Notes under the pieces: generated by a model
Databases searched by the model: none
The model's input: only the letters and a program-made list of their open reading frames with translations
What the model was told of the DNA's origin: nothing
Made by a program: the position numbers and the translations under genes
IMG/VR virus record: IMGVR_UViG_3300040942_000041
Span: 1 to 38,007 of that record
Reading direction: 5' to 3' (one strand)
DNA length: 38,007 nt
DNA from: a virus
Taxonomy: Duplodnaviria; Caudoviricetes
Shown: positions 3,683 to 37,747 of the stretch, one piece after another
Layout of the letters: the number at the start of each line of letters is the position of its first letter
How positions within the stretch are numbered: the first letter of the stretch is position 1

Positions 3683-4363
3683 TTAGTTCGTTCTGTAAGC
3701 GTAGTAGTCCTTTCCGAGTTCCACTTCATCTCCGTCATATCCAGCGATGACCGAACCGCGCCCGTCTGACTCGATGACATACTTGGCTAGTTTCGTGGAA
3801 TCAACCTGTGCGAACTGTTTGAAGGCTTCGTCTCCGAACTCTCTAATATACCAGTCAATGATGCTGTCGTTGCCCTGCCAGTCCTCTCTGAGTTGGTCGG
3901 CAAACTCCTCTTCTGAGGCCACGTTCTTCTTGGCCATCTCCTCATCCAGTCTGGTCTCGAACTCTGGGTCGCTTGACGGCTCTTCCCTTATGTTCTCGAT
4001 ATAATTGTCAACCGATTCGGATAGGGCGGTCTCGAAGTCGTCCTCATTCAGCACAAAGTCCTTCCATTCTACTGAGAAACCCTCTTGTCCCGTCTCTTCA
4101 AAGGTATCTACAACGCTCTGTTCTGCGAACTCATCGGCCTCTTGGTCGTTCATGATGAACCATGTCTCATGGCCTACTTCGACTTCAACATAGGGAGAGG
4201 GGTCTACGTTGTGGATGTCGCCAACATTGTAACCTAGATGGTAGAGCAACTGCACTATAGCCTCAAGATGAGGCGCATCTACGTCTGGGAATCGGTCTTC
4301 CATCTCGCTTGTGGCGACCTTTCCTTCTGCTGGCTTCGGTGTTTCCTCTGGCGGCTCTGCCAT
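3683..4363 (-). CDS. Highly acidic hypothetical protein (C-terminal DGRG..IAGYDG.E...YYAYRTN)
   Basis: Real start likely ATG 4363 (MAEPPEE), 23 nt after TTTAAATA at 4394-4387; the 154 upstream codons of the track ORF look non-coding. Confidence 0.8.
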   Translation of the reverse strand: MAEPPEETPKPAEGKVATSEMEDRFPDVDAPHLEAIVQLLYHLGYNVGDIHNVDPSPYVEVEVGHETWFIMNDQEADEFAEQSVVDTFEETGQEGFSVEWKDFVLNEDDFETALSESVDNYIENIREEPSSDPEFETRLDEEMAKKNVASEEEFADQLREDWQGNDSIIDWYIREFGDEAFKQFAQVDSTKLAKYVIESDGRGSVIAGYDGDEVELGKDYYAYRTN

Positions 4364-4746: not shown

Positions 4747-6093
4747 ATGTCTGAGAGCAATCGTGTTTTGAATACGTTTCAACAGATTCGCGCCCTCTAT
4801 CAGAGGTCTGATGTTGAGAAGACACCAGAAGGAATCACGATTAGCGTGGGAGCGAAACTCTACATCGCCTACCCCACTACGATTGCATCGCCAGTCTACA
4901 TCGTGGACACGAAGAACATCATCCACAGCAAGAAGATTTCCCTACCTCTGATGGAGATGGACATCAAGGCGTTGGATGAGATTTTCGACCTGAAGGACAG
5001 GGACTACATCACGAAGCGGATAGGAGACGACCCACGAATCAAGGGGTGGGATGACTTGGGACTTTACACCTTTGGGACGGATTACTCGTTCAACGACCTC
5101 ACTTTAGGCAAGTGGCTCGATGTCTCAACTGGACAGGTGACGGAAGAGTGGACTAAACTTCTGGCCGACATCATAGAATACAACTGTGTCCGAGACCCTG
5201 CTCTGGCCCTCTCCAACAAAGCCACTTTGCCAAGAGGCTATGTTATGAGGTATCAGCCGCACGAACTTCAAATCACGCCACCTAATACGGGCAAGAGCAC
5301 GTTCTTTGAACTCATAGGCAAGAATGTGGATAAGGCCACTAAGAACACCCTGTTGGGTTCTGTCAAGTGGACAGACGACAAGGCGGCTGGATTGTTCGCT
5401 GACCAATACTTTGCGCTTGCCATAGACCAGATAGAGAGCCAGACCATAGAGAACATGGCTGGATTCCTTCTGGGTCATCTAGAATCTGGAAAGTCCAGAG
5501 TAGCGGGTGGCGGTGGGGAGATGATGGTTCAAGGCGCGTGTCCCTTAGTCATAACGGCCAACCCACTGGCTTTGTCTGGAAGTCATACCGCAATTATGCG
5601 CGACATCTTGGGCTTCCTCTGTCGTAACAGTTATGCTATGGGCAGAAGGTTCGGCATCATAAACTATGGTGGCTATGCTCCATTGGTGGACAAGGGCTAT
5701 GATGATGTCGAGCATCGGAGATTGGTCGAGACCTATAGGGCTTTAGAGGAGAGGCTGACCGACACCCTTCAGAAGTTCTGGCTCCATCCCAAGATTAAGG
5801 CGTATTGCAATCAGCCCATCTATGACCCGTCTCTCTATGACAAGATAGAGGCGTGCGACACGGTAGAGGTTAGGTCGTTCTTCTTAGCCCATTACGCCCA
5901 TTCATATCCCCATCTTAGAGGCGGTGCTCTGAACTGCGCCTTGTCCGACAATCTGCCCAAACTGGCGAAGATAGACGTTCTTATGATGGATGACTTGGAC
6001 AAGATAGTGGACGACATAATCGAGAAGGCCAACGAGTATGCTGAACTGCTTAAGGTGATAAATATTGCCAGTATCGAATACACCCTCTCCTGA
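4747..6093 (+). CDS. MCM-like AAA+ ATPase, putative replicative helicase
   Basis: Walker A TPPNTGKS, Walker B LAIDQ, LESGK, sensor-1 ITANP, Arg finger GRRF; next to primase; start ATG 4747 is 22 nt after TTTTATAG 4717-4724. Confidence 0.7.
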   Translation: MSESNRVLNTFQQIRALYQRSDVEKTPEGITISVGAKLYIAYPTTIASPVYIVDTKNIIHSKKISLPLMEMDIKALDEIFDLKDRDYITKRIGDDPRIKGWDDLGLYTFGTDYSFNDLTLGKWLDVSTGQVTEEWTKLLADIIEYNCVRDPALALSNKATLPRGYVMRYQPHELQITPPNTGKSTFFELIGKNVDKATKNTLLGSVKWTDDKAAGLFADQYFALAIDQIESQTIENMAGFLLGHLESGKSRVAGGGGEMMVQGACPLVITANPLALSGSHTAIMRDILGFLCRNSYAMGRRFGIINYGGYAPLVDKGYDDVEHRRLVETYRALEERLTDTLQKFWLHPKIKAYCNQPIYDPSLYDKIEACDTVEVRSFFLAHYAHSYPHLRGGALNCALSDNLPKLAKIDVLMMDDLDKIVDDIIEKANEYAELLKVINIASIEYTLS

Positions 6094-6319
6094 CCCCTTC
6101 TGGTGGCGGCAGTATAGCCCTTTCTTGGGTTACTGTCCTCAATGTGGAGCAGACGGTCTTGTGATTGCGGCAGATGGATTCATATGGTTCGACTTCCTCA
6201 GTTACGACATTCCTTTTGCCGAATGGAAGTGTTGGATGTGCGGCTTCGTTGTAAGGAACCCAACCTTAGAGGAAATTGAGGAGATGCGGAAGCACTCGAC
6301 AGGTGGATGGTGGGCATGA
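6065..6319 (+). CDS. Zinc-ribbon protein
   Basis: CPQC...CWMC; sits between helicase and primase with overlaps at both ends. Confidence 0.7.
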   Translation: MPVSNTPSPDPFWWRQYSPFLGYCPQCGADGLVIAADGFIWFDFLSYDIPFAEWKCWMCGFVVRNPTLEEIEEMRKHSTGGWWA

Positions 6320-7041
6320 GCCTTCCTTTCTTAGAGACTTGCCGAAAATGGTGGGACAGAGACTTCTCCACCTTCCCATCTGACAACATAGGGTTATACA
6401 GGTATAAGGCCCAGACCCAAGCCGACTACTATGAATATATCCTTGGGAAGTTGGCCGATGTAGATGACGCTTACTTCCCGTTCTATGTGCCAACCGTGAC
6501 CAAGGAATGGACTGAGGAGCAGAAACAGGATGTCATCATAAGGCGGCTCTTTCTTGATATGGATGTGCGAGAGAACGAAGAGGGTAAGAAGGACACTTTG
6601 GAGTCTATATGGGAAAAGGGCCGCTTCTTCGCCAAGCGGTTCTGGCCCAATATGGAACTCTTCTTCAGTGCTGGCAAGGGCTTCCACTTTTATGTCCACA
6701 TAGTTCCTACGACTTATGGTGAGTTGCGTGAGCATAGGGAGACGCTCTATTGGAACTTGAGCACTTGGCTCCAATATTTGATTGACAAGCGCACCTTCAT
6801 CAGTCTGGATAGAATCTGTCGCATAACTCTGACCAAGCATTCTATAGACCCCGACTTCCCTACCCCGATACGCTGGAAGGTTCCCATCCGACCTGAGATG
6901 AATATGACTGAGATTCTGAGATATAGCCAGTTTCCGACCAACTTCAAGGACGACTTTCTGAGGCTATATGAGAGGCCCATAGAACCCTTGGACTATAAGA
7001 TATTCTTACGGTCTCCCCACGAACTTCTTAGAAAGATTTAA
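6316..7041 (+). CDS. Archaeo-eukaryotic primase catalytic subunit (PriS-like)
   Basis: Motif I LFLDMD, motif II SAGKGFH, motif III LID...RICR; ATGA overlap at 6316. Confidence 0.88.
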   Translation: MSLPFLETCRKWWDRDFSTFPSDNIGLYRYKAQTQADYYEYILGKLADVDDAYFPFYVPTVTKEWTEEQKQDVIIRRLFLDMDVRENEEGKKDTLESIWEKGRFFAKRFWPNMELFFSAGKGFHFYVHIVPTTYGELREHRETLYWNLSTWLQYLIDKRTFISLDRICRITLTKHSIDPDFPTPIRWKVPIRPEMNMTEILRYSQFPTNFKDDFLRLYERPIEPLDYKIFLRSPHELLRKI

Positions 7042-7769: not shown

Positions 7770-8066
7770 ATGGCAATAGAGACATCAATACTGGATGAAA
7801 TGCAACTGAAGAGGCTTGCAACTGTTCTGAGGTTTGGAGAGTTTGACCTACTTACAGGTGAAGAGATAGAGGCGATTGCATTAACTCTTGAAGCCCTTGC
7901 AAAGAAGGAAGCGTTGAAATGCAAGAAGTGTCGTGGTCATGGACAACTCATCACCTTTCTCCCAGACGAAGTGCATTCACCCTACTTCATCCCTTGCCCA
8001 GACTGTCATGGGACAGGTGAGGAGCCTGAATCCTTAAATAGCGTCAAGACAGAGGGTAAGCCATGA
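7770..8066 (+). CDS. Small protein with DnaJ-type zinc finger
   Basis: CKKCRGHG...CPDCHGTG; ATGA overlap with next gene. Confidence 0.75.
   Translation: MAIETSILDEMQLKRLATVLRFGEFDLLTGEEIEAIALTLEALAKKEALKCKKCRGHGQLITFLPDEVHSPYFIPCPDCHGTGEEPESLNSVKTEGKP
8028..8047 (+). promoter_or_regulatory. BRE/TATA promoter of the RPA gene
   Basis: GAATCCTTAAATAGCGTCAA, TATA element 22 nt before ATG 8063. Confidence 0.75.
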
Positions 8067-8902
8067 CACAACTAACGATTGAGGAAATCCTCAAGAAAGT
8101 CCCTGCTCTCAAGCGATATGAGGGCAATCCAGAAGCAATCCGCACAGTCTACGCAGAACTCAATCCAAAGAAAGACCTCAGTGGTCTGATAGAGGGAGAG
8201 TTCGTGAACGGAGCCGAAGTCCTTATTGTAAGGATTCTGAACGAATCTTTCTACATAGGATGCCCGACTTGTTTCACAAAGAAAGACGGCATGGAAGAGG
8301 GCGTCGTTTTCGACTGTCCTAGCCAGAGATGCAACACACAGAGAGTCGCAACCAAACTCCCAAGATGGTCTATACTGGCCGGAGACGAGACTACAAAGGC
8401 CATACTGGACTTCCCACCTTTCGGTTACAAACTCACCGATGGCAACGCTCTGATAGGCAAAGTTGTGGCCATCAAGGGCAATGTCACGGCTTTGAGAGAC
8501 CAAAAGGTGAAGGGAGAGGTCAAGGGTCAAACGCCAGTCATAATGGTGAGAGACCTTAAGGTGGTCTCCGACATCAGAGACAGCGTTCCAGAGACGATAG
8601 GGGAGCGAATCACCAAGTCAACGCTGGCAGAAGCGGCCAAGTTCCCACTTGGAGAGGGGCCAGAAGGTCTACCCAACCCACTCGTCTCACCAAACACAGG
8701 GATGATACCTGCACCCAAACTCACGGCTCTTCAGACTTGGATGAACGCTGTAGGCAAAGGCAACCCTGTAGCGGAAGACCAAGTGAAGATGTATGTTGAG
8801 AACAATCTCAAACTTACGTTTGCGGATGTCCTGCCTCTTCTGGATAAGAGCCACTCCGACCAAGAGAACAAGACTCTATACGCGCTCAAGCCTCAGAAGT
8901 AA
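8063..8902 (+). CDS. RPA-like single-stranded DNA-binding protein (OB fold with zinc ribbon)
   Basis: FYIGCPTC..K...CPSQRC...LAGDETT...LIGKVVAIKG pattern of the zinc-containing OB fold of archaeal RPA. Confidence 0.75.
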   Translation: MTQLTIEEILKKVPALKRYEGNPEAIRTVYAELNPKKDLSGLIEGEFVNGAEVLIVRILNESFYIGCPTCFTKKDGMEEGVVFDCPSQRCNTQRVATKLPRWSILAGDETTKAILDFPPFGYKLTDGNALIGKVVAIKGNVTALRDQKVKGEVKGQTPVIMVRDLKVVSDIRDSVPETIGERITKSTLAEAAKFPLGEGPEGLPNPLVSPNTGMIPAPKLTALQTWMNAVGKGNPVAEDQVKMYVENNLKLTFADVLPLLDKSHSDQENKTLYALKPQK

Positions 8903-8961
8903 GGCTTGGGCCTCTTCTTTCTGACACCTTTAAATAGTCGGTAGTGCTAAATCCATGTAGT

Positions 8962-10464
8962 ATGCAACCGCCCTATCAGCCAGCAGAGCCTCACGAACCT
9001 GCCCCGAAGGTAGGGCAGAAGAACTATCCCAACATTGAGAAGTTCAACGAGCAGGTTCCAAACCCACAGACTAAGACAGGTGGGCCACCCCTACCCAAAG
9101 CCACAGAGATAGAGAGCTATGAGGCTCAGATTGCCAACCTTCAGAAGCAGATAGACAATCTGGACATGGCCCACGAAGAGTTGTGGAACGATGTGATTTC
9201 TGGCCGTTCTCCATTAGAACGGAGCGAAGAGGAGATGGACTACTTCAGGTGCGAGTTCTGTCACGAACTGATTGACCCTGTAGAAGAGTATCACACCCAT
9301 GAGGGTAGGAAGTATTACGGCCACGCCAAGAATGAGGAAGGGATAGGCGGGTGGACTTTCGACTGTCCCAAGTGCAACGGGACAGGAAAGATAGGTGACT
9401 CTGATTGCGACAAGTGCGATGGGACGGGTGGTGTCTACGAGAGTGGGAAGCACTACAAGCCAGAAGAGGGGCAGAACGCATGGTGCTATCGTCACGACAA
9501 GACAGTGAACGAGCACAACGATGATGAACTCGATGAGGATGAAGAGAAAGGGACAGAGAACTATGAAGAGAAACCAGAAGGTTGTGGCCCTGATTGTAAA
9601 GACCCTAATTGTGACTATGGTGGCCCCTGTGATTGTGGGGATTGTGAAGGTTGCACCGATGAAACAGGAGATTGGATTCCAGAGAAAGGAGAGCCAGACC
9701 CTAGCAATCCAGACAAGGAACTTGATAAAGACCCTGACATCCCAGAGCCAGCCGAGCCTACAGAGCCTACGTCTCAGCACGTTACAGCCGATGGGCTGGA
9801 CGTTCCAGACAAGGTTGAGATACCTGAAAGGCTCTACAACGACCTCATGATGATGATTGAATACTCCACGACCAACGACAACGAAGCGGGTGGCTTTCTT
9901 ATCAAGGCTAAACACGGTGACTTGGGAGTTGTAGGGGAGCAGTTTGGCAAGGATAGAGAGATAGTTTTGGAGCCTAACGAGCAACTTCATGAAGGAGAGG
10001 AGTTGGTAGGCACAGTCCATATGCACCCTGTCACCCCGACAGCCAGCACAGGGGATGTGGCTGGCTATCTCAACGATGAGAACGAGAAGGTCATGGTAGT
10101 TGTGGGAGCCGACAAGTCTATCAATGTCTTTTTCAAGACCTCTTTCACGGCAGAGGGCGACTACGGGGATGAGATTTCAGACAACTTCGAGCAGTCCGAT
10201 ATGGGGATGCTGGCAGAGGGTCTGGGCTTTATATGGTATAGAGGAGAGGAGTCGGATAGGACTGTCCTCAACATCATCACCAATGTAGTGGATGATGTGG
10301 AACTGAATGTCGTGGACGAGACTTGGCCTATAGAGGACTTGGTAAAGGCTTTGGGAATCAAAGGCGTAGACCAAATTCCTTCCGAATACAGCACCAAGAA
10401 GACTCCACTCAAGTTGCAAATTCCCTTCAGTTTCCGTTGTAAAGATGCAATTCTTACAGGATAG
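8962..10464 (+). CDS. Acidic modular protein with Cys/His modules and C-terminal JAB/MPN+ metallopeptidase domain
   Basis: NEAGG...VGTVHMHPVTPTASTGD (E...HxH-x6-S-x2-D); CxxCxGxG pair; start ATG 8962 after TTTAAATA 8929-8936. Confidence 0.75.
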   Translation: MQPPYQPAEPHEPAPKVGQKNYPNIEKFNEQVPNPQTKTGGPPLPKATEIESYEAQIANLQKQIDNLDMAHEELWNDVISGRSPLERSEEEMDYFRCEFCHELIDPVEEYHTHEGRKYYGHAKNEEGIGGWTFDCPKCNGTGKIGDSDCDKCDGTGGVYESGKHYKPEEGQNAWCYRHDKTVNEHNDDELDEDEEKGTENYEEKPEGCGPDCKDPNCDYGGPCDCGDCEGCTDETGDWIPEKGEPDPSNPDKELDKDPDIPEPAEPTEPTSQHVTADGLDVPDKVEIPERLYNDLMMMIEYSTTNDNEAGGFLIKAKHGDLGVVGEQFGKDREIVLEPNEQLHEGEELVGTVHMHPVTPTASTGDVAGYLNDENEKVMVVVGADKSINVFFKTSFTAEGDYGDEISDNFEQSDMGMLAEGLGFIWYRGEESDRTVLNIITNVVDDVELNVVDETWPIEDLVKALGIKGVDQIPSEYSTKKTPLKLQIPFSFRCKDAILTG

Positions 10465-28537: not shown

Positions 28538-28728
28538 TCAGATACCTCATGTGTGAAGGACAGATGCAGTGGCCAGTCTCCTCTTGGGTCAACCAGTTTG
28601 GAGTGCTTGAGACAGAGTTGAATTGTGAGCGACCCATTCTTCCAGTCTCTCGTCATGATTATGACTTTGCAATCGGGGCAATCCTTATAGATGAACTGGT
28701 CTTTCCCTTCGAGAGTAAGTTGCTTCAT
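28534..28728 (-). CDS. Small protein with N-terminal QLTL motif and CxxC/CxxH
   Basis: MKQLTLEG; CPDC...CLKH. Confidence 0.65.
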   Translation of the reverse strand: MKQLTLEGKDQFIYKDCPDCKVIIMTRDWKNGSLTIQLCLKHSKLVDPRGDWPLHLSFTHEVSE

Positions 28729-29129
28729 ATTAATGTGAGCCTCATGGTTAGAACGGGTTTCCCTGTCTTGCTAGTCCCTAGTCTCACGACTTGGTATCCG
28801 AACTTGTTCAGCATTCCGATTGAAGGATGGTTCGAGACTCCCACCTTGGTCTGAAGGAACTTGAAGCCATGCTCCTTGGCCCACTGAATCTTTGCGTTCA
28901 AGAGAAGGGACGCTATCCCTGACCCACGACAATCGTGGTCTACCACTGTGATGGAATACTTGCTGTCCTTGCTCATGGCCGAGTATCCGACTATCTTCCC
29001 GTTCCTCTCTTCGATGAACCCGACCCGCACCCTTGAGCATTTCTTTGGGATGCCCAGAATGTGTCGGTCTCCGTTGGCTGTAATGAAGTCCACTATTGCT
29101 TGGTAGTCGGCAGGGGTGTAGAGTCTCAT
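28725..29129 (-). CDS. GNAT-family acetyltransferase
   Basis: VVDHDCRGSGIASLLL (acetyl-CoA motif A), N.PSI.ML.KFGY (motif B). Confidence 0.88.
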   Translation of the reverse strand: MRLYTPADYQAIVDFITANGDRHILGIPKKCSRVRVGFIEERNGKIVGYSAMSKDSKYSITVVDHDCRGSGIASLLLNAKIQWAKEHGFKFLQTKVGVSNHPSIGMLNKFGYQVVRLGTSKTGKPVLTMRLTLI

Positions 29130-29661: not shown

Positions 29662-29885
29662 GATTCCAACCCTCTCTCGCGCCCCTTCTTAAAGGTTGTT
29701 GCCGTTCTCATGGCCTCTGTCCATCGAACTAGGGTGTGGCCATTGACCTTGCTTCCGCAGACGAAGAGCATACGGAGTAAGCCTCTTGGCTTCCAATAGC
29801 CCTTACTCAGCCAGTGATGGAACCACGCTCTGATGTGTGAGTTGGTTCGGAAATTACAGTGGATGCAATAGTAGCGGGGCATCAT
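29658..29885 (-). CDS. Small C2H2-like zinc-finger protein
   Basis: YYCIHCNF.......WFHH. Confidence 0.6.
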   Translation of the reverse strand: MMPRYYCIHCNFRTNSHIRAWFHHWLSKGYWKPRGLLRMLFVCGSKVNGHTLVRWTEAMRTATTFKKGRERGLES

Positions 29886-30937
29886 TTGATTAGGTTCTCC
29901 CTTGCGCTTTCATCATCGAAGTTGTGGAAGGAAGTCGCGTGTCCGAAGTAGTCGAACCCGTTCTTGAAGATTCTGCCGCAATAGCCGCATCCGACTGCAT
30001 CTGGCTCACGCCTAGTGCGATACTCACTTCTCACATAGTCTTGGAGACGGTCTCTGTATTGCTCGTCATCTTCCTCTTCCTCTCTGTAAATGCGGTCAAT
30101 CATGTCTCCATTGTGCGTCTCTGATGGTGGTCTTGCTGTGTCTGATATTGGTCTTGTTATGTAGTCTCTGTCTGGGTCTGAGCCAACGAATGTAGGTATC
30201 GGTGGTCTGTAGTCTGGCGCGGTGTCTCTCACGCGCTCATGTGTGGTGTCTGTTATCGCTTCTGCATTGTCGTGAAGCATATGATTGAATCTCTTTCTGT
30301 CTACATGGGCCTCTAAGTATCCCAAGTTCTCGAAGACCACGTTGCAGATTGAGCAACCCACGACTTGGCTTACGTCCATCCCTGTTGGCATTCTCTCTTC
30401 CGGTGGCAACGCCCTGACTCTAGCAATGAACATCTCGAAGTTGTGTGTCCGTGTGTTGTGAGTCTCGGCTGTTCTCCAATTCTCATAACGCCATCGAGTC
30501 GTGCCTCTGTCTGGCGTATTGTGAATCTGTCGGGCCATGCTGTAGAGTCTGTTAGCAACCCTGACCTTCCAGACTATGAACGGCTCGTCTGGTCTTCGGG
30601 CCTTGTCGTTCTCTGTTAATGCGGTCTCAGCCATCGTCATCTCGGTCTCTTCCTCTTCGTCCACCTCAACTCTTGAGGGTCGAATCAGATAACCAAGGCC
30701 AAGGCATCGTTGGTTTCCACTACACCGACAAGCGTTATGTTCCCAATAGCGGCACGTTGGTTCGTAGCACACACATTGGATTTGGAGATTCAGATTGTTA
30801 ACTGTCTCAGAAAGTTCCATTGACATCCTCTCATTAGTTGCGGTGTCTCGCTCTGCCATGCCTTTCACTAGGGTCTCATGAAGGAGTTCGATTTCCTTCA
30901 CGGCACACTGCATCGAAATGTCTAGTCTAAGCGGCAT
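29882..30937 (-). CDS. Protein with two C2H2-like zinc fingers and an N-terminal Cys cluster
   Basis: VGCSIC..F.....LEAH...H and VGCGYC..F.....FGH...H. Confidence 0.75.
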   Translation of the reverse strand: MPLRLDISMQCAVKEIELLHETLVKGMAERDTATNERMSMELSETVNNLNLQIQCVCYEPTCRYWEHNACRCSGNQRCLGLGYLIRPSRVEVDEEEETEMTMAETALTENDKARRPDEPFIVWKVRVANRLYSMARQIHNTPDRGTTRWRYENWRTAETHNTRTHNFEMFIARVRALPPEERMPTGMDVSQVVGCSICNVVFENLGYLEAHVDRKRFNHMLHDNAEAITDTTHERVRDTAPDYRPPIPTFVGSDPDRDYITRPISDTARPPSETHNGDMIDRIYREEEEDDEQYRDRLQDYVRSEYRTRREPDAVGCGYCGRIFKNGFDYFGHATSFHNFDDESARENLIK

Positions 30938-30940
30938 GGT

Positions 30941-31399
30941 CTATCTCTGGGTCTCCGTTGATGCTAGGTAGTCCTCAAAGGCATGGGAGTCAAACCCTAT
31001 CCCCTGATGTCTAGGGTCTGGTTCATGGCTCTCAGTGCGGCTGAACCCTTCGCCTATCTTGAAGACCTTATTGCCCCGATGTCCGATAACCTCTAAGTTC
31101 TTACAACTCAAGGCTGGCCTAGTTGTGGATTCCCAATCTACGCAAGTGCAGAAGCGGGTTCCATCGCTGTCTGACTCTACGAATGGGCAACGGTCATCAT
31201 GGCATTTGCAGACTATCTCAAGTTCCTTTGTCTTCTCAAGCATCTTCCTCACTGTCCATTGCTGAATCTTCGAGCCAGCAAGTCTGACCATCTCAATGAG
31301 ACGTTGCGCTTCCATGACTCTGCAAGGCAATGAAGTCGTCTTGACCTTCATCTTCTTGTAGTTGGTGATGGCTCTAGTCGCTGGATGGATTATTGTCAT
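30941..31399 (-). CDS. Cys-cluster hypothetical protein
   Basis: CKC....CPF...CTC...C; ATGA-coupled to the ATP-grasp gene. Confidence 0.7.
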   Translation of the reverse strand: MTIIHPATRAITNYKKMKVKTTSLPCRVMEAQRLIEMVRLAGSKIQQWTVRKMLEKTKELEIVCKCHDDRCPFVESDSDGTRFCTCVDWESTTRPALSCKNLEVIGHRGNKVFKIGEGFSRTESHEPDPRHQGIGFDSHAFEDYLASTETQR

Positions 31400-32175
31400 G
31401 CTAGGCTTTCAACCCATCTCTTGAAGTTCTTGGCGTAGCGATTGGTATCCTTGAGTTTCGGTGAAGTGTTTGCTTCGAGAATGTAAGCCTTGTCTCCTAC
31501 CATGATTAGGTCTACGGCTCCGAAGTCCAGACCTAGAGCCTTGCAAGCCTTTACCGATTCGACTACCATCTCCTTGTAGTTCGGAACGGCCTCTTCCCTT
31601 TCCTCTCTCGCGTAGTAGACCAACTCCCACCCGTTCTCGAAGTTCCAGATAACAGGGTTCGGATTCTCTGCTGGCTTCTTCTCTGCTAGTCCGATACACT
31701 GGCCTTGGAAGATGTGAAGTCTGAACTCTCTATCCTTCTCCAAGAACTGGACGTAATATCCGCTTCTCCTTTCGCGGGGTAGGCTGTCCGTTGGTCTTAG
31801 GCGAAGGATGTCTTGGCCTTGAATGTGGTGCTTGCGTCTCCGAAGGAAGTCGCAACCCAACTCACGACACTTGGCCTTGGCTGTCTCGAAGTCGTTCCAG
31901 AATAGGGGTGCGCTGACTCCTGCCTCTAAGAACTTGGCGTGTGCCTTGTCCTTATGGAGATTGCCATTGATGGCTCTGGCTGGATTCAAGACTGCCTTGG
32001 CTCCCTCATCCAACTCTGGGAATCTAGTTGAACCCCACCGAATCACAACGTATTCCTCTCTTGGTCTGCTCGTTGGATTCCTCACAACCTCTAGCCCGTC
32101 CTCTTCGAGCCTCTTGATAATCCGTTCCGGTGTCTCGGATTTACTCACACCGCAGTCAATGAAGACGACTATCAT
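31396..32175 (-). CDS. ATP-grasp peptide ligase (RimK/YheCD-related viral type)
   Basis: IRWGS, VLNP, QFLEKDREFRLH, ALGLDFGAVDLI, YILEANTSP; start MIVVF 32175. Confidence 0.9.
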   Translation of the reverse strand: MIVVFIDCGVSKSETPERIIKRLEEDGLEVVRNPTSRPREEYVVIRWGSTRFPELDEGAKAVLNPARAINGNLHKDKAHAKFLEAGVSAPLFWNDFETAKAKCRELGCDFLRRRKHHIQGQDILRLRPTDSLPRERRSGYYVQFLEKDREFRLHIFQGQCIGLAEKKPAENPNPVIWNFENGWELVYYAREEREEAVPNYKEMVVESVKACKALGLDFGAVDLIMVGDKAYILEANTSPKLKDTNRYAKNFKRWVESLA

Positions 32176-32176
32176 T

Positions 32177-32839
32177 TTAGTAGTATCCCCTTTCGTGCCA
32201 AGCCTTGGCAATATCGCTCAAGTCTACGGAGTTGTCGTCTTGTTTTGCGGCTCCCGCAGGAACCTCTTTTGGGTCGAGAAGCACCGTCCCGTCTTCGTCT
32301 GCCATCTCTTCCTTGTCGCTCTTGTCTGGAAGTGCTTTCTTCTTTGGCTCGTATTTCTGTGTGATTGGATTCCATTCGGTCTTCTCCTCTTCAGGTGTCC
32401 CTTCCTTCTTAGGAACGAAGGCAACGATTGGCTCAGTGAGAGGGTCATTCGAGTCCTTCACTTCTACCCTCTCCTTGGCATCCGCTTCGCCTTTCAGAAT
32501 CCTGATGGGGAATCCGTTCTCAATAAGGGTCTCTGGTTCCATCGCTCCTTTAGAAGGTGGCTGACCCGTAGATGCTTCCACTAAGGCATTCATGAATTGG
32601 GTGAAGGTCACATAAGAGCCAGACCTGTCGTTCAGTTCAAACTCTGTGAAGTTCGGAAGCCAGACCTTCAACTTGTAGTCGTTGCCATAACCTGATTTTC
32701 TGGGTGTGACTTCGACCCGCATCACGGCTCCCGCTATCCTAATCTTCTGGTCATTCTCCTTGAGTTTGATGCCCTTCGAGATTTTACTCTCGTCTTGGCC
32801 CGTCTTCCTTATCGGAATGTGGTCTGAGTTGTAGGACAA
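32177..32839 (-). CDS. Hypothetical protein with acidic disordered C-terminal half
   Basis: TTG start; embedded between GATase and ATP-grasp genes. Confidence 0.75.
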   Translation of the reverse strand: MSYNSDHIPIRKTGQDESKISKGIKLKENDQKIRIAGAVMRVEVTPRKSGYGNDYKLKVWLPNFTEFELNDRSGSYVTFTQFMNALVEASTGQPPSKGAMEPETLIENGFPIRILKGEADAKERVEVKDSNDPLTEPIVAFVPKKEGTPEEEKTEWNPITQKYEPKKKALPDKSDKEEMADEDGTVLLDPKEVPAGAAKQDDNSVDLSDIAKAWHERGYY

Positions 32840-32840
32840 T

Positions 32841-34493
32841 TTAGTTATTCCCCATGTCGAAGCACGTTTCCTTTACTAGCATTCCGTTCTGGTCGAAGCC
32901 ACCGAAGCCTTGTTTGTGGTGAACTGTGCAAACCAGTCCAGCCTTGGGTCTGCAATCGCAACCCATCGGCCTCTGTTTTATCACGACGACCTCACGCTTT
33001 TGTCTGTTCAAGTCGTTCATGGGGTGCATCGCTTCTGAGAACCCACACCGTCCACAACTCCCTGAGTCTGTGTAGAACCTGCGCCCTGACTTGGGGTCTT
33101 CGTCTTCTATCTTCATATCTTGGTAGAAGTGCGTCTCTGGCCCGTCCTCTTTGTGGTTGCCAACTGCTCTGCTCTGGCCACAATCTTGGCAGTAGTCGCT
33201 CCCACCTAGTTTCTTGAACTCATGAGCCAAGTGGAGAACGCTGAAACTGGACTTCGTTCCGCACATACACTGAATGGTCGGGTAATTGAAGTCCCGCGTG
33301 AAGGGGTGTCTTTTGTCCCATTTGTCGTATTGGTCTTCTAGTTGGTCTTGTGTTTGCTCTGCGGCTCGGTTCCGATTCAGTTCTTGAAGAATTTTGTGGT
33401 AGGGTAGGCTCATCATGCACACATCGCAAGTTGCCATTCCTGAATCATCCTTCGTGCCAGATGGAACGAATGAGTGGTCTGATGGGTCGCTGTAAGTGTC
33501 GAAGTCTAAGGGTCGGCCCTTCTTGTCCACCATTGCTCTCATCTTTGCGTCCCAATGCGCCCCGTTTGCGATTGCCTTGTTGTAGTTCTGGGAAGAGAAC
33601 CCTTTGACTCTTCCGCATTCCGATGGCATCACGCCCTGACCCTGTTGTAGTTCCCATGCCTCTGCGTTTTGAACTCCACCACCTAAGTCCCAAATGTCTG
33701 CGTCTGAGAAGACCTTGCGGTAGGTTCCGTTGCCAGCGTCTTGATAATAGGACGTTATCTGAGTCTGGCTCTTCACTTTCCACACATGGGCCTTAGTCTT
33801 GTAGGTCGTGCCTTTACCGTAGGCGATTGAACCGTAAGGCATCTCATCGAACTTGATTCCAAGTTTCTTGGCTTGCGCTTCGTCTAGCCATGCCTTGTCT
33901 GAAGAGACCACGATAATATCCCCGTCCTTGGTCTTCGAGATTCCAAGTGCTGACTCTGCCATCGCAACCCATTCGTCTGTCACGAAGTTGTAGAAGATAA
34001 GATTGGCCCATCCTGTGATGTCCATCTCCTTGACCTTCTCGGTGAACTTCTTGGCTCTCTTCTCTAGGTTGCTCTCGTTGATGTCGGCCCAGATGTGAAT
34101 GAAAACTTCGCTGTCAATCTCAGTCGTCATAATGTGCTTGTCTCTCAACATAAGTCTGGCATTCGTATCTTGAACGCATCCATTGTGAACCAGAAGCCAG
34201 TTGCCGCTTTTCAAGTCCTGTCTGTCTCGGCAGATGAACGGATGAGTCCCTTCGCCCTTCGTTGCCTTGCGGAAGTGAATGAGCATCCTATCATAACTGC
34301 GCTCAAGTCGAGCCATGTCGTGGCTCTTCATGATTCGAGCCAAGTGCTTCTCTTCTCCCGTCTTCACCTTTGGGTAGTCTCGCCAGTAGCACCCAACGCC
34401 ATCGTCATTCGTTCCGGCCCACGCTGACTTGAATGCCAACTCGAAACTCTGAAGAGCCTTGTCGTTCCCAATTACTAATGCCATTCTACAGAT
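32841..34493 (-). CDS. Class II (Ntn) glutamine amidotransferase with C-terminal His/Cys repeats
   Basis: NDDGVG, IHFRKAT, THPF, LVHNG, IDSE; in-frame ATC-TGT-AGA before ATG 34484 supplies the N-terminal catalytic Cys. Confidence 0.85.
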   Translation of the reverse strand: MCRMALVIGNDKALQSFELAFKSAWAGTNDDGVGCYWRDYPKVKTGEEKHLARIMKSHDMARLERSYDRMLIHFRKATKGEGTHPFICRDRQDLKSGNWLLVHNGCVQDTNARLMLRDKHIMTTEIDSEVFIHIWADINESNLEKRAKKFTEKVKEMDITGWANLIFYNFVTDEWVAMAESALGISKTKDGDIIVVSSDKAWLDEAQAKKLGIKFDEMPYGSIAYGKGTTYKTKAHVWKVKSQTQITSYYQDAGNGTYRKVFSDADIWDLGGGVQNAEAWELQQGQGVMPSECGRVKGFSSQNYNKAIANGAHWDAKMRAMVDKKGRPLDFDTYSDPSDHSFVPSGTKDDSGMATCDVCMMSLPYHKILQELNRNRAAEQTQDQLEDQYDKWDKRHPFTRDFNYPTIQCMCGTKSSFSVLHLAHEFKKLGGSDYCQDCGQSRAVGNHKEDGPETHFYQDMKIEDEDPKSGRRFYTDSGSCGRCGFSEAMHPMNDLNRQKREVVVIKQRPMGCDCRPKAGLVCTVHHKQGFGGFDQNGMLVKETCFDMGNN

Positions 34494-34507
34494 GGTTCTC
34501 TACCTCT

Positions 34508-36088
34508 CTATCCGTTGATTATCATCGCGTGAGAAGACGCATCGTAGAAGACCTTGAGTTCTGCCAAGGCTTTCGTGACTCGCTCGTTGGTGATTCCTAA
34601 TAGGGCCGCGACCTTCGAGACCCAATCCTCTTCACTTACAGATTCAATCTCAGCCAGTGCGATTATCTTGTGCAGTTGTTTCGCTACGGGCGAAGTCTCG
34701 CTGACTAACTTCTCGGTGGTCTGCTGTGCTGGCTCTCGTTGCCTCACTGGATTCTCAATCAAATGCTTCACGCAATCCCTTTCAAACTCACTGAGGAAGG
34801 GGGCCAGTTCTCTTAGAAGTCTGATTGAATGCTCTCTCATGAATGCTTCGTCTTCTGGGGTGATTCCACTTCGAGCCTCTATCTTCTCGATAACGGCCTT
34901 GACTCGCTCCCATTGCTCCTTGTTGGTCTCTACGCTGATGAGTCCGAAGTTGCTCAGTTGTGCGCTCCTGAGAATCAATCCCTTAGTCAACGACCTTGCG
35001 CTCAAAATTTGCTCCATGTCGAATGTCGAGTCGGGTGTCCGAACCTCAATGTCGAATGCGTCCATCAGTGGCCTTGCGATTGGTGTGTCAACGAAAAAGA
35101 GTCCTGCTCTTGCCGTGTTATTGTTATGCTCGTTGAGTCCATTGGCCCATCCTGCCGAGAATGGGGAGCGTTTGTAATAGTGGAAGTGAGCGTAGAACTG
35201 TCCGTCATGTTGTGAGTTGCGAATGAATCCAGTTTGTGGGCTATAGTTGCCGAAGAGATTCACGATTGCGGGGTAGTAGAACCTGTAGAGTTGCCATAAG
35301 TTCTTGGCGATAACGCTCGGAATCCTCTCGATATTGTGAACTAACATAGCGTGAACGTGAAGACTGTTATGCTGACTTGGCACGAAGTATCGCTTAAGTT
35401 TTTGCAACGGGAACCGCTTTACGAACTCTTCGCTAGTGATATTGCTACCGTAGATAATGAACTCCCATCCTTCCACTGAAGCGTCCTTTTCAATGCTTCG
35501 GATAAGATTCTCTGGAAGGTGGTTCCAACATTCTGAACTCCCGCAACAAGGGCAATCGGGTAGTTTGTGGTAGGGAGTTGGGGCCAGTCCGTAATACTCT
35601 GCAATCTCGCGCTCTGAAGGTGGACGTGTCCGATTCTTGAAGTCATATTCACATTCGAGACCGAGAACTAGGTTCTTGTTAAAGTAGGCTGTGAAGTCTT
35701 CCTTAGTCGCTTCCTTAGTCCTGAAACGCCAAGTCGGTTTCAGTGCGGCCTTCTTATGACCGATTCCCACAACCATTTCCTCTGAGTCGTCTACCTTCTC
35801 GGTGACTCCTTGTTTCACGCGAATGGTGGCCCAAACCTTCGAGTCTACTAGGCTCTTGTAGGCGTAGAAGATTCCTGCTTGGTCTGCACCGCATTCGTAA
35901 AGTCTACGGCAGACTGGCTCGTTGGCTAGTGTCGAATGAATGTGATGGTCGGGGTCTTCGTTTGAAGTGTGGGTCTCTGCCAACTCTCCGCAATAGGGAC
36001 AATGGATTTCGTTTGTCGGATGCGGCACTAAGTCCGTGAACTTAATGGGGTCTTCGTCTAGCGTCAACGTCTCATTAGGGAAGGGCAT
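34508..36088 (-). CDS. Putative amidoligase (glutamine-synthetase-like COOH-NH2 ligase)
   Basis: LGLECEY, KDASV.GWEF, SLHVH, IEVR; context with GATase and ATP-grasp. Confidence 0.78.
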   Translation of the reverse strand: MPFPNETLTLDEDPIKFTDLVPHPTNEIHCPYCGELAETHTSNEDPDHHIHSTLANEPVCRRLYECGADQAGIFYAYKSLVDSKVWATIRVKQGVTEKVDDSEEMVVGIGHKKAALKPTWRFRTKEATKEDFTAYFNKNLVLGLECEYDFKNRTRPPSEREIAEYYGLAPTPYHKLPDCPCCGSSECWNHLPENLIRSIEKDASVEGWEFIIYGSNITSEEFVKRFPLQKLKRYFVPSQHNSLHVHAMLVHNIERIPSVIAKNLWQLYRFYYPAIVNLFGNYSPQTGFIRNSQHDGQFYAHFHYYKRSPFSAGWANGLNEHNNNTARAGLFFVDTPIARPLMDAFDIEVRTPDSTFDMEQILSARSLTKGLILRSAQLSNFGLISVETNKEQWERVKAVIEKIEARSGITPEDEAFMREHSIRLLRELAPFLSEFERDCVKHLIENPVRQREPAQQTTEKLVSETSPVAKQLHKIIALAEIESVSEEDWVSKVAALLGITNERVTKALAELKVFYDASSHAMIING

Positions 36089-36382
36089 CTATTCATTCCA
36101 CCTGTCTGAATCTTCGTCTCGGTCTTGGCTGTCTTCAAGGGTATCTCTGTCTTGGTCTTCAATCCTTCGGACTCCGAGAACGCCTTGTGAAACCGTGTCC
36201 TTTTTCAAGAACTCGATGAGGCGATTTCGGCTCACAGCAATCGAGACCACGAACTCTTTACCTTCGTTCTCCTTGAGTTTCAAGGGCATCTCTTCGGTCA
36301 CTTGAACGCTCTTCCTGACTCTCTTTCGGAATGCGTTTACCAATTCGCTGTCTTCTCCACCCTTGCGATTTTGTCGTGCCAT
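36089..36382 (-). CDS. Small charged hypothetical protein
   Basis: Abuts both neighbours. Confidence 0.65.
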   Translation of the reverse strand: MARQNRKGGEDSELVNAFRKRVRKSVQVTEEMPLKLKENEGKEFVVSIAVSRNRLIEFLKKDTVSQGVLGVRRIEDQDRDTLEDSQDRDEDSDRWNE

Positions 36383-36576
36383 TAAGCGACCCCACCACTT
36401 GAGGGGATATAGGTTAGGTGATTGTCTTCTGTTAACAGAAGGTCAACATCGGTTGACAAGTCTGGACTAGATTCTAGTTCCAAAAGTTCTTCAATCGGCT
36501 TTGGCGTGTGGTAAGGGAAAATCAAGGCCATCAGAACTTCAGTGAAGTTGCTCGGAACCTTGAGCGTGTCTGTCAA
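36382..36576 (-). CDS. 64-aa protein ending ...LTEDNHLTYIPSSGG-VA (possible ubiquitin-like/ThiS-MoaD fold)
   Basis: TTG start one base after the amidoligase stop; C-terminus resembles the L.xGD.V..IP...GG tail; fold call speculative. Confidence 0.4.
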   Translation of the reverse strand: MTDTLKVPSNFTEVLMALIFPYHTPKPIEELLELESSPDLSTDVDLLLTEDNHLTYIPSSGGVA

Positions 36577-36577
36577 T

Positions 36578-37747
36578 CTAGTCCTCTCCGTAGTATCCTG
36601 CATGATTCGGATGCCTCTTCCGAATTGGATTCAGAACGCAACGCTTCACGCACTGTCTCTCGTAAGGCGTGAGTAGGTCTCTCATGTCTTTGTAGAACTC
36701 CTTAGCCATTGCTCTCATCTTGGCTCCCTGTCTCTGTTCAAGTTTCAAGTCCAAGTCCGAGAAAAGTCCAGAACTGTTCGAGCGATTGATGTCCCTTATT
36801 ATTGGCTCGATTTCCGTCCACCTGTCTTCAGGAATGTTGATAACGCCCTTCGTTGCCAGTTGTGCGCTTTTCAGAACTAATGCCTTGCTCAGTGACCTTG
36901 CGGCCACGATTTGCTCTGGGTCTTGGCTTGCGTCTGTCTGTCGAATCTCAACGTCAAAATGATTGAAGACCTTCTTATCTTCGTCTACATAGCATGAAGC
37001 AAAGGTTAGACCATGCTTGTATCGTCTGGCTATTGTCGGTGTGCTTTCTTTGTCAATGTTTTCATTGCCGCTATTCCACCAATAATCGAAGTCGCTTGCG
37101 TCCTCATCATAGTCGTGCCAAGTTGCCCAATTACCCCTTATGATGCTTCCCTTCCGATTGCCGAATATGTAGGCCCATGCAGGGTAGTAGACTCTGAAGA
37201 GTTGCCACATATTCTGACCGATTGAAACTGGAATCTTCTCATTGTGGCTTGGAATCAGAACGTGGCTGTGCATCGAATCCATATAGCATGGCTCGAAGTA
37301 TTTTCTGATGTTCGCCAGTGGGAGACGCTTTACGAACTCTTCGCTTGGGATTGGAGACCCGATAACAATGAACTCTCTTCCCTTAATCGTGCAGTCAGCC
37401 TTCACAATTCTAATGGTCTTCGGTGGGTCGCACTTCCAGCATCCTGAATCTCCGCACACTGGACAAGACGCAAAGTCACCTTCACTAACCCCGACCTCTT
37501 CTCTTGCTACAGAGTCGAATGTGTTATGCCTCTGTTCTCTGCCGAACTCGTCCTTAGTTATTGTCTCTACGCCTTCCTTGAAGTTATACTCTAACTCAAG
37601 TGAGACCAGAAGTTTCTGTTCCAAGTAGGGAGTCCAATCCGTCTCAGTCCGTTGCTTTGGGTCAACCGTCCACTTGGCCCCAAGTCTGTGAACTGTAGGG
37701 GTTGCTGGCTCTGTCTCAGTCATGAAGTCGTCTAAGGTCGGGGTCAT
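36578..37747 (-). CDS. Putative amidoligase, paralog of 34508-36088
   Basis: VSLELEY, ADCTI.GREF, SMHSH, VEIR; shared SEEFVKR.P, NxWQLxRxYYPA, EQI..ARSL.K; ATGA-coupled start 37747 (TTG 37801 alternative). Confidence 0.78.
   Translation of the reverse strand: MTPTLDDFMTETEPATPTVHRLGAKWTVDPKQRTETDWTPYLEQKLLVSLELEYNFKEGVETITKDEFGREQRHNTFDSVAREEVGVSEGDFASCPVCGDSGCWKCDPPKTIRIVKADCTIKGREFIVIGSPIPSEEFVKRLPLANIRKYFEPCYMDSMHSHVLIPSHNEKIPVSIGQNMWQLFRVYYPAWAYIFGNRKGSIIRGNWATWHDYDEDASDFDYWWNSGNENIDKESTPTIARRYKHGLTFASCYVDEDKKVFNHFDVEIRQTDASQDPEQIVAARSLSKALVLKSAQLATKGVINIPEDRWTEIEPIIRDINRSNSSGLFSDLDLKLEQRQGAKMRAMAKEFYKDMRDLLTPYERQCVKRCVLNPIRKRHPNHAGYYGED

What the first reader, a model, noticed from the sequence alone, without database searches (positions are those of the whole stretch)
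31396..37747. Complete peptide-ligation cluster (2 amidoligases + Ntn amidotransferase + ATP-grasp) in an archaeal virus
Seen: tightly coupled operon amidoligase-1, two small ORFs, amidoligase-2, class II GATase, unknown 220-aa ORF, ATP-grasp ligase. Established: the same enzyme combination occurs in bacteriophages such as phiEco32, where it was proposed to build or attach a peptide modification, e.g. on the cell wall. Inference: here the promoters and replisome are archaeal, so the host probably lacks peptidoglycan and the target must be different (S-layer glycoprotein, a host protein, a cofactor or a small-molecule anti-defence product). Both amidoligases carry a CPxCGxSxCW insertion between the ExE and D motifs.
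Basis: partly seen in the sequence, partly recalled or inferred. Interest (0 to 1): 0.82.

Follow-up and report, generated by a model that had tools for sequence, protein, structure and literature searches.

The report
Phage amide-ligase cassette in archaeal virus
A tailed virus that very likely infects archaea carries an intact, highly diverged copy of a gene set for predicted amide-bond enzymes long known from bacterial viruses; its host likely lacks a bacterial-type wall, so the set likely tags something inside the cell rather than remodelling the wall as proposed for phages.

Summary
Observation confirmed. [quoted passage not shown] The set is syntenic in four other 91-107 kb virus records.

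An archaeal host is well supported: TATA boxes 21-24 nt before ATG (11 of 28; shuffles 1.3), PriX, and archaeal uS2, LonB and RecJ in relatives. uS2 and RNase HI point to Nitrososphaeria, without a CRISPR link.

It differs from the phage cassette: no cyclotransferase and no PF14395 ligase; a zinc knuckle and a winged helix in the ligases; two extra conserved zinc proteins. The amidotransferase keeps its catalytic Cys only if translation starts at ATC, a codon found in two separate clades.

Best mechanism (0.4, inferred): cytoplasmic glutamyl/amide tagging of a protein. The acidic 97-residue ORF (C-terminal Glu in 7 of 10 clusters) is a candidate acceptor. The product is unknown for every member.

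Amidoligase plus amidotransferase in a predicted archaeal virus is in print, and this scan noted such cassettes before on other DNA. New variant of a known kind.

The parts
36578..37747 (-). Ligase 1 (AL1), 389 aa: GS/GCS-type carboxylate-amine ligase with Cys4 knuckle; lacks the C-terminal winged helix
   Evidence: 32% to AL2, E 2e-62; ExE, D, E, H, R, ExR kept; Atlas leads GCS2 0.87 and Amidoligase_2 0.86, both under 0.9; 31-69% in 4 of 4 relatives; not modelled itself
36382..36576 (-). s63, 64-codon acidic ORF (TTG start), poorly conserved
   Evidence: Found in G001 (55%) and L052 (48%), not in G002, G003 or G004 loci
36089..36382 (-). s97, small conserved domain plus acidic tail ending in Glu; candidate acceptor or carrier (inferred)
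   Evidence: In 3 of 4 relatives, not found in G004; 10 clusters, C-terminal Glu in 7, Asp in 2, Gly in 1
34508..36088 (-). Ligase 2 (AL2), 526 aa: N-terminal Cys/His domain, GS/GCS-fold ligase with Cys3His knuckle, C-terminal winged helix (463-526)
   Evidence: Model pLDDT 81.8; YbdK Z 16.2 (rmsd 4.0, 265 aligned), plant GCL 16.1, Dop 14.0, PafA 13.2; winged helix Z up to 6.7; phage amidoligases E about 1e-6
32841..34493 (-). Class II (Ntn) glutamine amidotransferase/amidohydrolase, 550 aa from a likely ATC start (ATC-TGT-AGA-ATG), with a Cys/His-rich C-terminal extension
   Evidence: GATase_4 25.4 bits, cut-off 23; Cys-Arg, HFRKxT, HNG, DSE in 5 of 5 aligned; ATG at this codon in L003, L004, L006, ATC in window, L002, L048, L050, L052, L005
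32177..32839 (-). u220, unknown: predicted five-strand sheet plus helix (19-96), acidic linker, ends Gly-Tyr-X
   Evidence: In 4 of 4 relatives; model poor, mean pLDDT 42.7; no fold match above Z 4.4
31396..32175 (-). RimK-like ATP-grasp ligase of the phage cassette family, 259 aa
   Evidence: phrog_2599 E 4e-35; 231 phage records, about 30% identity; FRxH, FGAVD, LExNTxP shared with GAP52; 58-83% in relatives
   Evidence: Six invariant Cys in 6 of 6 aligned rows; shares its Cys domain with zf351, hhalign E 2.5e-4, probability 43%
29882..30937 (-). zf351, Cys domain plus two C2H2-like fingers; co-conserved part of the module
   Evidence: 31-64% in 4 of 4 relatives; zf-C2H2 below cut-off
28725..29129 (-). 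GNAT acetyltransferase in the same gene run; membership uncertain
   Evidence: PF00583 E 1.7e-12; near the module in G004 (66%) and L052, not found in the G001-G003 stretches held

Best explanation
This is an intact, diverged archaeal-virus copy of the phiEco32-type amide-ligase cassette, and it likely builds a glutamyl/amide tag on a protein in the host cytoplasm rather than on a cell wall. Shown: the genes, their order, conservation and catalytic motifs. Predicted: the GS/GCS fold and winged helix of ligase 2. Inferred steps: (1) the two ligases use ATP to activate a carboxylate, probably a Glu gamma-carboxyl, and join it to an amine; (2) the ATP-grasp enzyme adds a further residue, probably Glu; (3) the Ntn enzyme cleaves a gamma-glutamyl amide, either releasing ammonia from Gln for a ligase or removing a glutamyl handle as EgtC does (about even odds); (4) the zinc domains, winged helix, u152 and zf351 select a macromolecular target, with the s97 acidic tail as candidate acceptor; (5) the purpose is early host takeover or counter-defence.
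For: Fold: the top 19 rows of 48,161 chains are all GS/GCS-superfamily proteins, including the protein-tagging pair Dop and PafA. D202, E209, H244, E348, R350 are invariant in 48 of 48 rows. No membrane segment in nine ORFs: highest 19-residue hydropathy 1.34. Host archaeal. Accessory domains typical of macromolecule recognition: winged helix region in 37 of 48 rows, Cys/His-rich extensions. s97 ends in Glu in 7 of 10 clusters although Glu is 13% of the tails (clusters are related, so the binomial 6e-5 overstates it). EgtC precedent for step 3: PMC9103826, passages.
Against: No substrate or product is known for any member. The best fold matches are small-molecule ligases (YbdK 16.2, GCL 16.1), above Dop and PafA. 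s97 was not found in the complete record G004, which keeps all four enzymes, and 3 of 10 s97 clusters do not end in Glu. s97 has no Gly-Gly before the terminal residue (Pup motif, recalled). If translation starts at the ATG at 34484 the Ntn enzyme lacks its nucleophile. PolB matches E. coli Pol II slightly better than archaeal PolB (83.7 vs 73.2 bits).
Confidence: 0.4

Rival explanations
1. The four enzymes make a diffusible gamma-glutamyl peptide or amide, or glutamylate a host cofactor; the Ntn enzyme removes a glutamyl protecting group, as in the EgtA/EgtC pair.
For: YbdK and GCL are the best fold matches. Weak hits to EgtC (18.9 bits, cut-off 218.65) and to the cofactor ligase MptN (23.6, cut-off 350). 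A metabolite role was suggested for phage Marvin (second-hand, PMC10580990 passages).
Against: No transporter or further tailoring enzyme in the module apart from a variably present GNAT. It does not explain the winged helix, the many zinc domains or s97.
Confidence: 0.27
2. The cassette modifies nucleic acid (viral DNA bases or tRNA), the winged helix and zinc fingers binding the polymer.
For: Amidoligase and amidotransferase genes co-occur with thymidine hypermodification genes in phage contigs (PMC8989533 passages). AL2 ends in a winged helix and zf351 has C2H2-like fingers. Relatives carry translation and RNA-repair genes (uS2, RNA ligase, RlaP).
Against: No thymidylate-synthase-family gene in 5 of 5 records, three complete, with controls ringing in 10 of 14. 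HMUDK_hel and Tet_JBP also 0 of 5, but controls were nearly or wholly silent. The winged helix is net acidic (6 basic, 9 acidic), and AL1 lacks it.
Confidence: 0.15
3. The cassette alters the archaeal envelope from inside (S-layer protein or glycan precursors) to block superinfection, the analogue of the phage proposal.
For: This is the role proposed for the phage cassette (PMC5498523 and PMC10580990 passages), and gene order is kept.
Against: No membrane segment and no glycosyltransferase or membrane partner in the module. The phage proposal is itself untested in the passages read.
Confidence: 0.12
4. The host has a peptide-linked wall after all (a bacterium, or a pseudomurein methanogen) and the cassette works as proposed for phiEco32.
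For: No CRISPR or provirus link to a host was found. The RNase HI survey covered only Thermoproteota. PolB is ambiguous.
Against: TATA-to-ATG spacing 11 of 28 vs 1.3 +/- 1.1; PriX over its curated cut-off; archaeal uS2, LonB and RecJ in relatives; uS2 scores 100-111 bits to Nitrososphaeria-type MAGs vs 89 for the best solved uS2.
Confidence: 0.06

Closest known systems
phiEco32 / LUZ24 / RIO-1 phage amidoligase ('peptidoglycan modification') cassette: PF14395 + PF12224 + class II GATase + ATP-grasp + GGCT
   Same: Order ligases, GATase, ATP-grasp as in GAP52 and UFV-P2; ATP-grasp homologous by sequence; ligase fold nearest phage amidoligases; GATase stand-alone with a Cys-rich tail in both
   Different: Host likely archaeal; both ligases are paralogues of one new family, closer to Amidoligase_2 (hhalign E 0.0012) than to PF14395 (E 0.26); no GGCT found; zinc knuckle, winged helix, s97, u220, u152, zf351 have no match in the GAP52 ORFs tested; ligase 2 and GATase have no tblastn match in 50,697 phage records
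Vyasavirus brisbanense (predicted Poseidoniales virus) amidoligase + GATase, PMC11706807
   Same: Amidoligase and GATase reported in a predicted archaeal virus, with the phiEco32 proposal cited (passages)
   Different: No ATP-grasp or second ligase in the passages read; that genome also has a peptidoglycan amidase and the authors discuss alternative hosts; its sequences were not compared here
GCS2/YbdK, glutamate-cysteine ligases and the Pup ligase/deamidase pair PafA/Dop
   Same: Fold and metal/ATP-site motifs (Z 13-16); two paralogues beside a small acidic protein ending in Glu recalls PafA, Dop and Pup (recalled)
   Different: 9-16% identity; s97 has a conserved core and no Gly-Gly-Glu end; no proteasome link tested
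EgtA/EgtC (gamma-glutamyl ligase plus Ntn amidohydrolase of ergothioneine synthesis)
   Same: Same two enzyme classes in one operon; the Ntn enzyme there removes the glutamyl group (PMC9103826 passages)
   Different: Far below the EgtC cut-off; no EgtB, D or E seen in the module

Membership tests
phiEco32-type amidoligase cassette | GS/GCS-fold amidoligase of Amidoligase_2 type with ExE, E, H, R, ExR | tested here: met
   Motifs, fold, hhalign to the GAP52 PF12224 protein E 0.0012. The Pfam model itself hits 1 of 48 members, E 0.029
phiEco32-type amidoligase cassette | A separate COOH-NH2 ligase type 2 (PF14395) | tested here: not met
   AL1 is a 32% paralogue of AL2; no PF14395 hit in the window's 43 ORFs while the GAP52 ORF hits; 0 of 5 records, controls silent
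phiEco32-type amidoligase cassette | Class II GATase with N-terminal Cys, HxRxxT, HNG, DSE | tested here: met
   The N-terminal Cys needs the ATC start, which is inferred
phiEco32-type amidoligase cassette | RimK-like ATP-grasp of the phage family | tested here: met
   phrog_2599 E 4e-35; 231 phage records; motifs shared
phiEco32-type amidoligase cassette | Gamma-glutamyl cyclotransferase (GGCT/AIG2) | tested here: not met
   PF06094 0 of 5 records (3 complete), controls 9 of 14. A very diverged copy could be missed; I saw no GGCT annotated in the GAP52 region either
phiEco32-type amidoligase cassette | Order ligases, GATase, ATP-grasp in one gene run | tested here: met
   Window and 4 of 4 relatives vs GAP52 and UFV-P2
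phiEco32-type amidoligase cassette | Bacterial host with peptidoglycan (premise of the proposed function) | tested here: not met
   Archaeal promoters and markers; no direct host link
phiEco32-type amidoligase cassette | Same substrate and product | not testable with these tools
   No biochemical study found
Pup-type protein tagging (PafA/Dop/Pup) | GS-fold ligase pair | tested here: met
   Dop Z 14.0, PafA Z 13.2 for AL2; AL1 by homology
Pup-type protein tagging (PafA/Dop/Pup) | Small tag ending Gly-Gly-Glu/Gln (recalled) | tested here: not met
   s97 ends WNE, WSE, VME, FME, FAE, EGE, END, GMG, FQD
Pup-type protein tagging (PafA/Dop/Pup) | Tag binds the ligase | not tested
Thymidine hypermodification clusters | dUMP hydroxymethylase (thymidylate synthase family) | tested here: not met
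   PF00303 0 of 5, controls 10 of 14
Thymidine hypermodification clusters | 5-hmU kinase or TET/JBP | tested here: inconclusive
   0 of 5 each, but no control passed a cut-off
EgtA/EgtC ergothioneine pair | EgtC orthologue over the curated cut-off | tested here: not met
   18.9 vs 218.65 bits

The most novel reading that the evidence does not exclude
The viral amidoligase cassette, in phages as in this archaeal lineage, is not a wall-modifying pathway but a virus-encoded protein-tagging system: paired GS-fold ligases and an ATP-grasp enzyme conjugate or extend a small Glu-terminated protein (s97) onto host targets, with an Ntn eraser or ammonia donor held at low level by an AUC start codon. 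This would be a Pup-like or LysW-like writer-eraser system in viruses of archaea.
Probability: 0.15. Interest if true: 0.85.

Novelty: new variant of a known kind. Interest (0 to 1): 0.5.

Why it matters
The cassette occurs in hundreds of phage records, and the explanation repeated in the papers read is peptidoglycan modification, untested in those passages. A complete, conserved four-enzyme copy in a virus family whose host likely has no peptidoglycan argues for a target common to bacteria and archaea, or for repurposing. It gives a compact, soluble set without a cyclotransferase and a named candidate substrate, so the open question can be tested directly. It also shows that these ligases escape Pfam and that gene callers drop the catalytic Cys of the amidotransferase.

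Tried and rejected
Iyer et al. 2009 is not held; I cite it only through other papers. No supplements were read; Tables S13-S14 of PMC11706807 may list an ATP-grasp in Vyasavirus. Complex prediction of AL2 with the Ntn domain was not available, so no binding was tested. u220: Atlas first hits 0.90 to unnamed viral clusters, DUF669 lead 0.89 on 31% of members; fold searches on a poor model gave nothing; an HbYX-like reading of its Gly-Tyr-X end (recalled motif) is untested. Host by CRISPR: 20 kb of the window against 401 Thermoproteota genomes gave 3 weak matches, none in a repeat array (two in RNase H genes, one low-complexity). Ligase profile: 0 of 301 Thermoproteota genomes and 0 of 5 named ones, without a positive control. 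Context for the zinc-less clade: two viral scans found no locus, so its hosts are unknown. ATP-grasp profile: no solved structure; GATase profile: only PurF at E 0.25. Sigma-70 promoters and terminators at chance level (9 vs 7.4; 9 vs 9.0). No RNA holder listed. The careful tree did not finish; quick trees were used. Sequencing error at the ATC rejected: no other letter in 4 of 4 runs laid, which may include the source. No tRNA genes except one tRNA-Lys in 22 loci.
Full report
Setting. The window is a whole linear virus record, 36% complete, with portal, PolB, PriX and RNase H genes. Its relatives G001 and G003 (105-106 kb, terminal repeats), G004 (107 kb, classed provirus) and G002 (91 kb) have PolB 67-94% identical; terminase and an HK97-type capsid protein were found in the three complete ones. 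Of 23 runs listed, 20 hold the cluster, all peat or wetland DNA from 19 studies and all possible sources.

Anatomy. The seven ORFs are as described, with gaps or overlaps of 0-14 bases. No TATA-like site lies on the minus strand between 27588 and 38007, so one long transcript from beyond the window is likely. In a longer contig of the same virus, such sites lie about 3 kb upstream of ligase 1. All four enzymes and u220 are kept in 4 of 4 other records, and so are u152 and zf351; the ATP-grasp gene moves behind them in G002-G004. s97 is in 3 of 4, s63 in 1 of 4.

Ligases. AL1 and AL2 have no Pfam, PHROG or NCBIfam ligase hit. A search of 1.84 billion representatives gave 60 hits, and 6 came from a search with AL1. 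I aligned 48 sequences: the two window proteins, 41 of the 60 (fragments and near-duplicates left out) and 5 of the 6. D202, E209, H244, N263, E348, R350 and G382 are invariant and ExE nearly so. The AL2 model (pLDDT 81.8) matches YbdK (Z 16.2, rmsd 4.0, 265 aligned), plant GCL, Dop, PafA and glutamine synthetases, then winged helices over 463-526 at Z up to 6.7, a common level. Among viral models the named best hits are phage amidoligases, and two giant-virus amidoligases also appear. A quick tree splits the family into a 26-row clade that mostly carries the zinc knuckle and a 22-row clade mostly without it; both window ligases sit in the first, and AL1-type rows lack the winged helix.

Amidotransferase. 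All class II motifs are present. The first ATG lies three codons after ATC-TGT-AGA. G001, G002 and G004 have ATG at that codon; the window's virus, L052 (80% identical) and G003 have ATC. The ATC rows fall in two clades, each with Met-Cys relatives, and one database protein starts Leu-Cys. The Cys-Arg codons are unchanged, so initiation at AUC is the likely reading; loss of the nucleophile is the alternative. The enzyme has no fused synthase domain, so it may supply ammonia or remove a gamma-glutamyl group as EgtC does (PMC9103826, passages).

ATP-grasp. It belongs to the phage family (phrog_2599 E 4e-35; 231 phage records). In Cronobacter phage GAP52 the homologue follows PF14395, PF12224 and GATase genes in the same order, as in UFV-P2 (PMC3890496, passages).

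Host. Of 28 TATA-like sites in the window, 11 lie 21-24 nt before an ATG; 100 shuffles gave 1.3 +/- 1.1, at most 5. PriX passes its curated cut-off (57.2 vs 50). Relatives encode uS2 of archaeal type (119 vs 45.5 bits for the bacterial model), LonB and archaeal RecJ, all below the cut-offs. In a pattern-limited scan the top 8 of 15 uS2 loci were 7 Nitrososphaeria-labelled MAGs and one unlabelled archaeon. The window's RNase HI matched 170 of 301 Thermoproteota genomes, best (46%) the same MAG, which was the centre of that sample. Against: PolB is ambiguous, other phyla were not surveyed for RNase HI, and no spacer was found. I put an archaeal host at about 0.95 and Nitrososphaeria at about 0.65. 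That these archaea lack murein and pseudomurein is my own knowledge; PMC11706807 names Methanobacteria and Methanopyri as the walled classes.

Mechanism. GS/GCS-fold enzymes activate a carboxylate, usually a Glu gamma-carboxyl, and RimK-type enzymes add amino acids to proteins or cofactors (established, from knowledge). None of nine ORFs has a membrane segment. The winged helix, the knuckle, the Cys-rich GATase tail and two co-conserved zinc proteins suggest a macromolecular target. s97 ends in Glu in 7 of 10 clusters but was not found in G004. I therefore favour protein tagging (0.4) over a small molecule (0.27), nucleic acid (0.15), envelope (0.12) or a walled host (0.06). The DNA rival comes from PMC8989533 (passages); its usual partner, a thymidylate-synthase-family gene, was not found.

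Comparison and novelty. It works like the phiEco32-type cassette and shares three of its enzyme classes and their order, but fails two membership features (PF14395, GGCT), so I file it as a variant. The peptidoglycan role is described as hypothesised in PMC5498523 and as remaining to be explored in PMC10580990 (passages). Amidoligase plus GATase in a predicted archaeal virus is in PMC11706807 (passages), and a lone class II GATase in haloviruses in PMC8651126 (passages); PMC10848311 on Bathyarchaeia viruses does not mention them (passages). PMC7824862 passages added nothing. Searches showed no paper with the full set in an archaeal virus and no biochemistry; most subscription papers are not searched. 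This scan noted the cassette before in at least five other genomes, one sharing sequence words with this ATP-grasp and naming the same acidic ORF; my note on s97 preceded that look-up.

Verdict. Real, intact, archaeal with high probability, product unknown. New variant of a known kind; interest 0.5.

Noticed in passing
L013:3580-4233 (G001), L023:4884-5519 (G003), L019:6831-7496 (G004): Virus-encoded ribosomal protein uS2 of archaeal type with an insertion of about 12 residues, in 3 of 3 complete relatives. One paper search found nothing; the scan has noted it before.
   Followed up: partly
window 34493-34484, minus strand: Likely AUC start codon for the amidotransferase, seen in two separate clades; s63 and u220 start with TTG.
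   Followed up: yes
window 3677-27587: Eleven TATA boxes 21-24 nt before ATG, pointing to leaderless transcripts.
   Followed up: yes
L014:11527-12435 (G001), L008:1782-2705: A second, diverged capsid-protein-like gene (51-57% to the major capsid protein over two stretches) besides the main one.
   Followed up: no
window 4747-6090, 6307-7038, 8063-8899: By eye an MCM-like AAA+ ATPase, an AEP primase and an RPA-like zinc/OB protein (motifs recalled); none has a Pfam or NCBIfam hit.
   Followed up: no
L014:4021-4533, L013:7142-8194, L018:5825-8197, L018:2512-2961, L016:9951-11234: Relatives carry a SET-domain protein, a Nal1-type protease domain, archaeal LonB, a RimI-like acetyltransferase and an RNA ligase.
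   Followed up: no
L052:8905-11887: The GNAT gene is split by about 2.5 kb of other sequence in this relative; intron or insertion not examined.
   Followed up: no
window 8944-10461: Conserved acidic protein whose C-terminal half has an HxHP...D motif like JAB/MPN isopeptidases (recalled), 72-84% identical in relatives; a possible tag remover, untested.
   Followed up: no
L048:8167-8800 and 3700-3780: The region upstream of the cluster holds repeated sequence blocks and short tandem repeats visible in translation.
   Followed up: no
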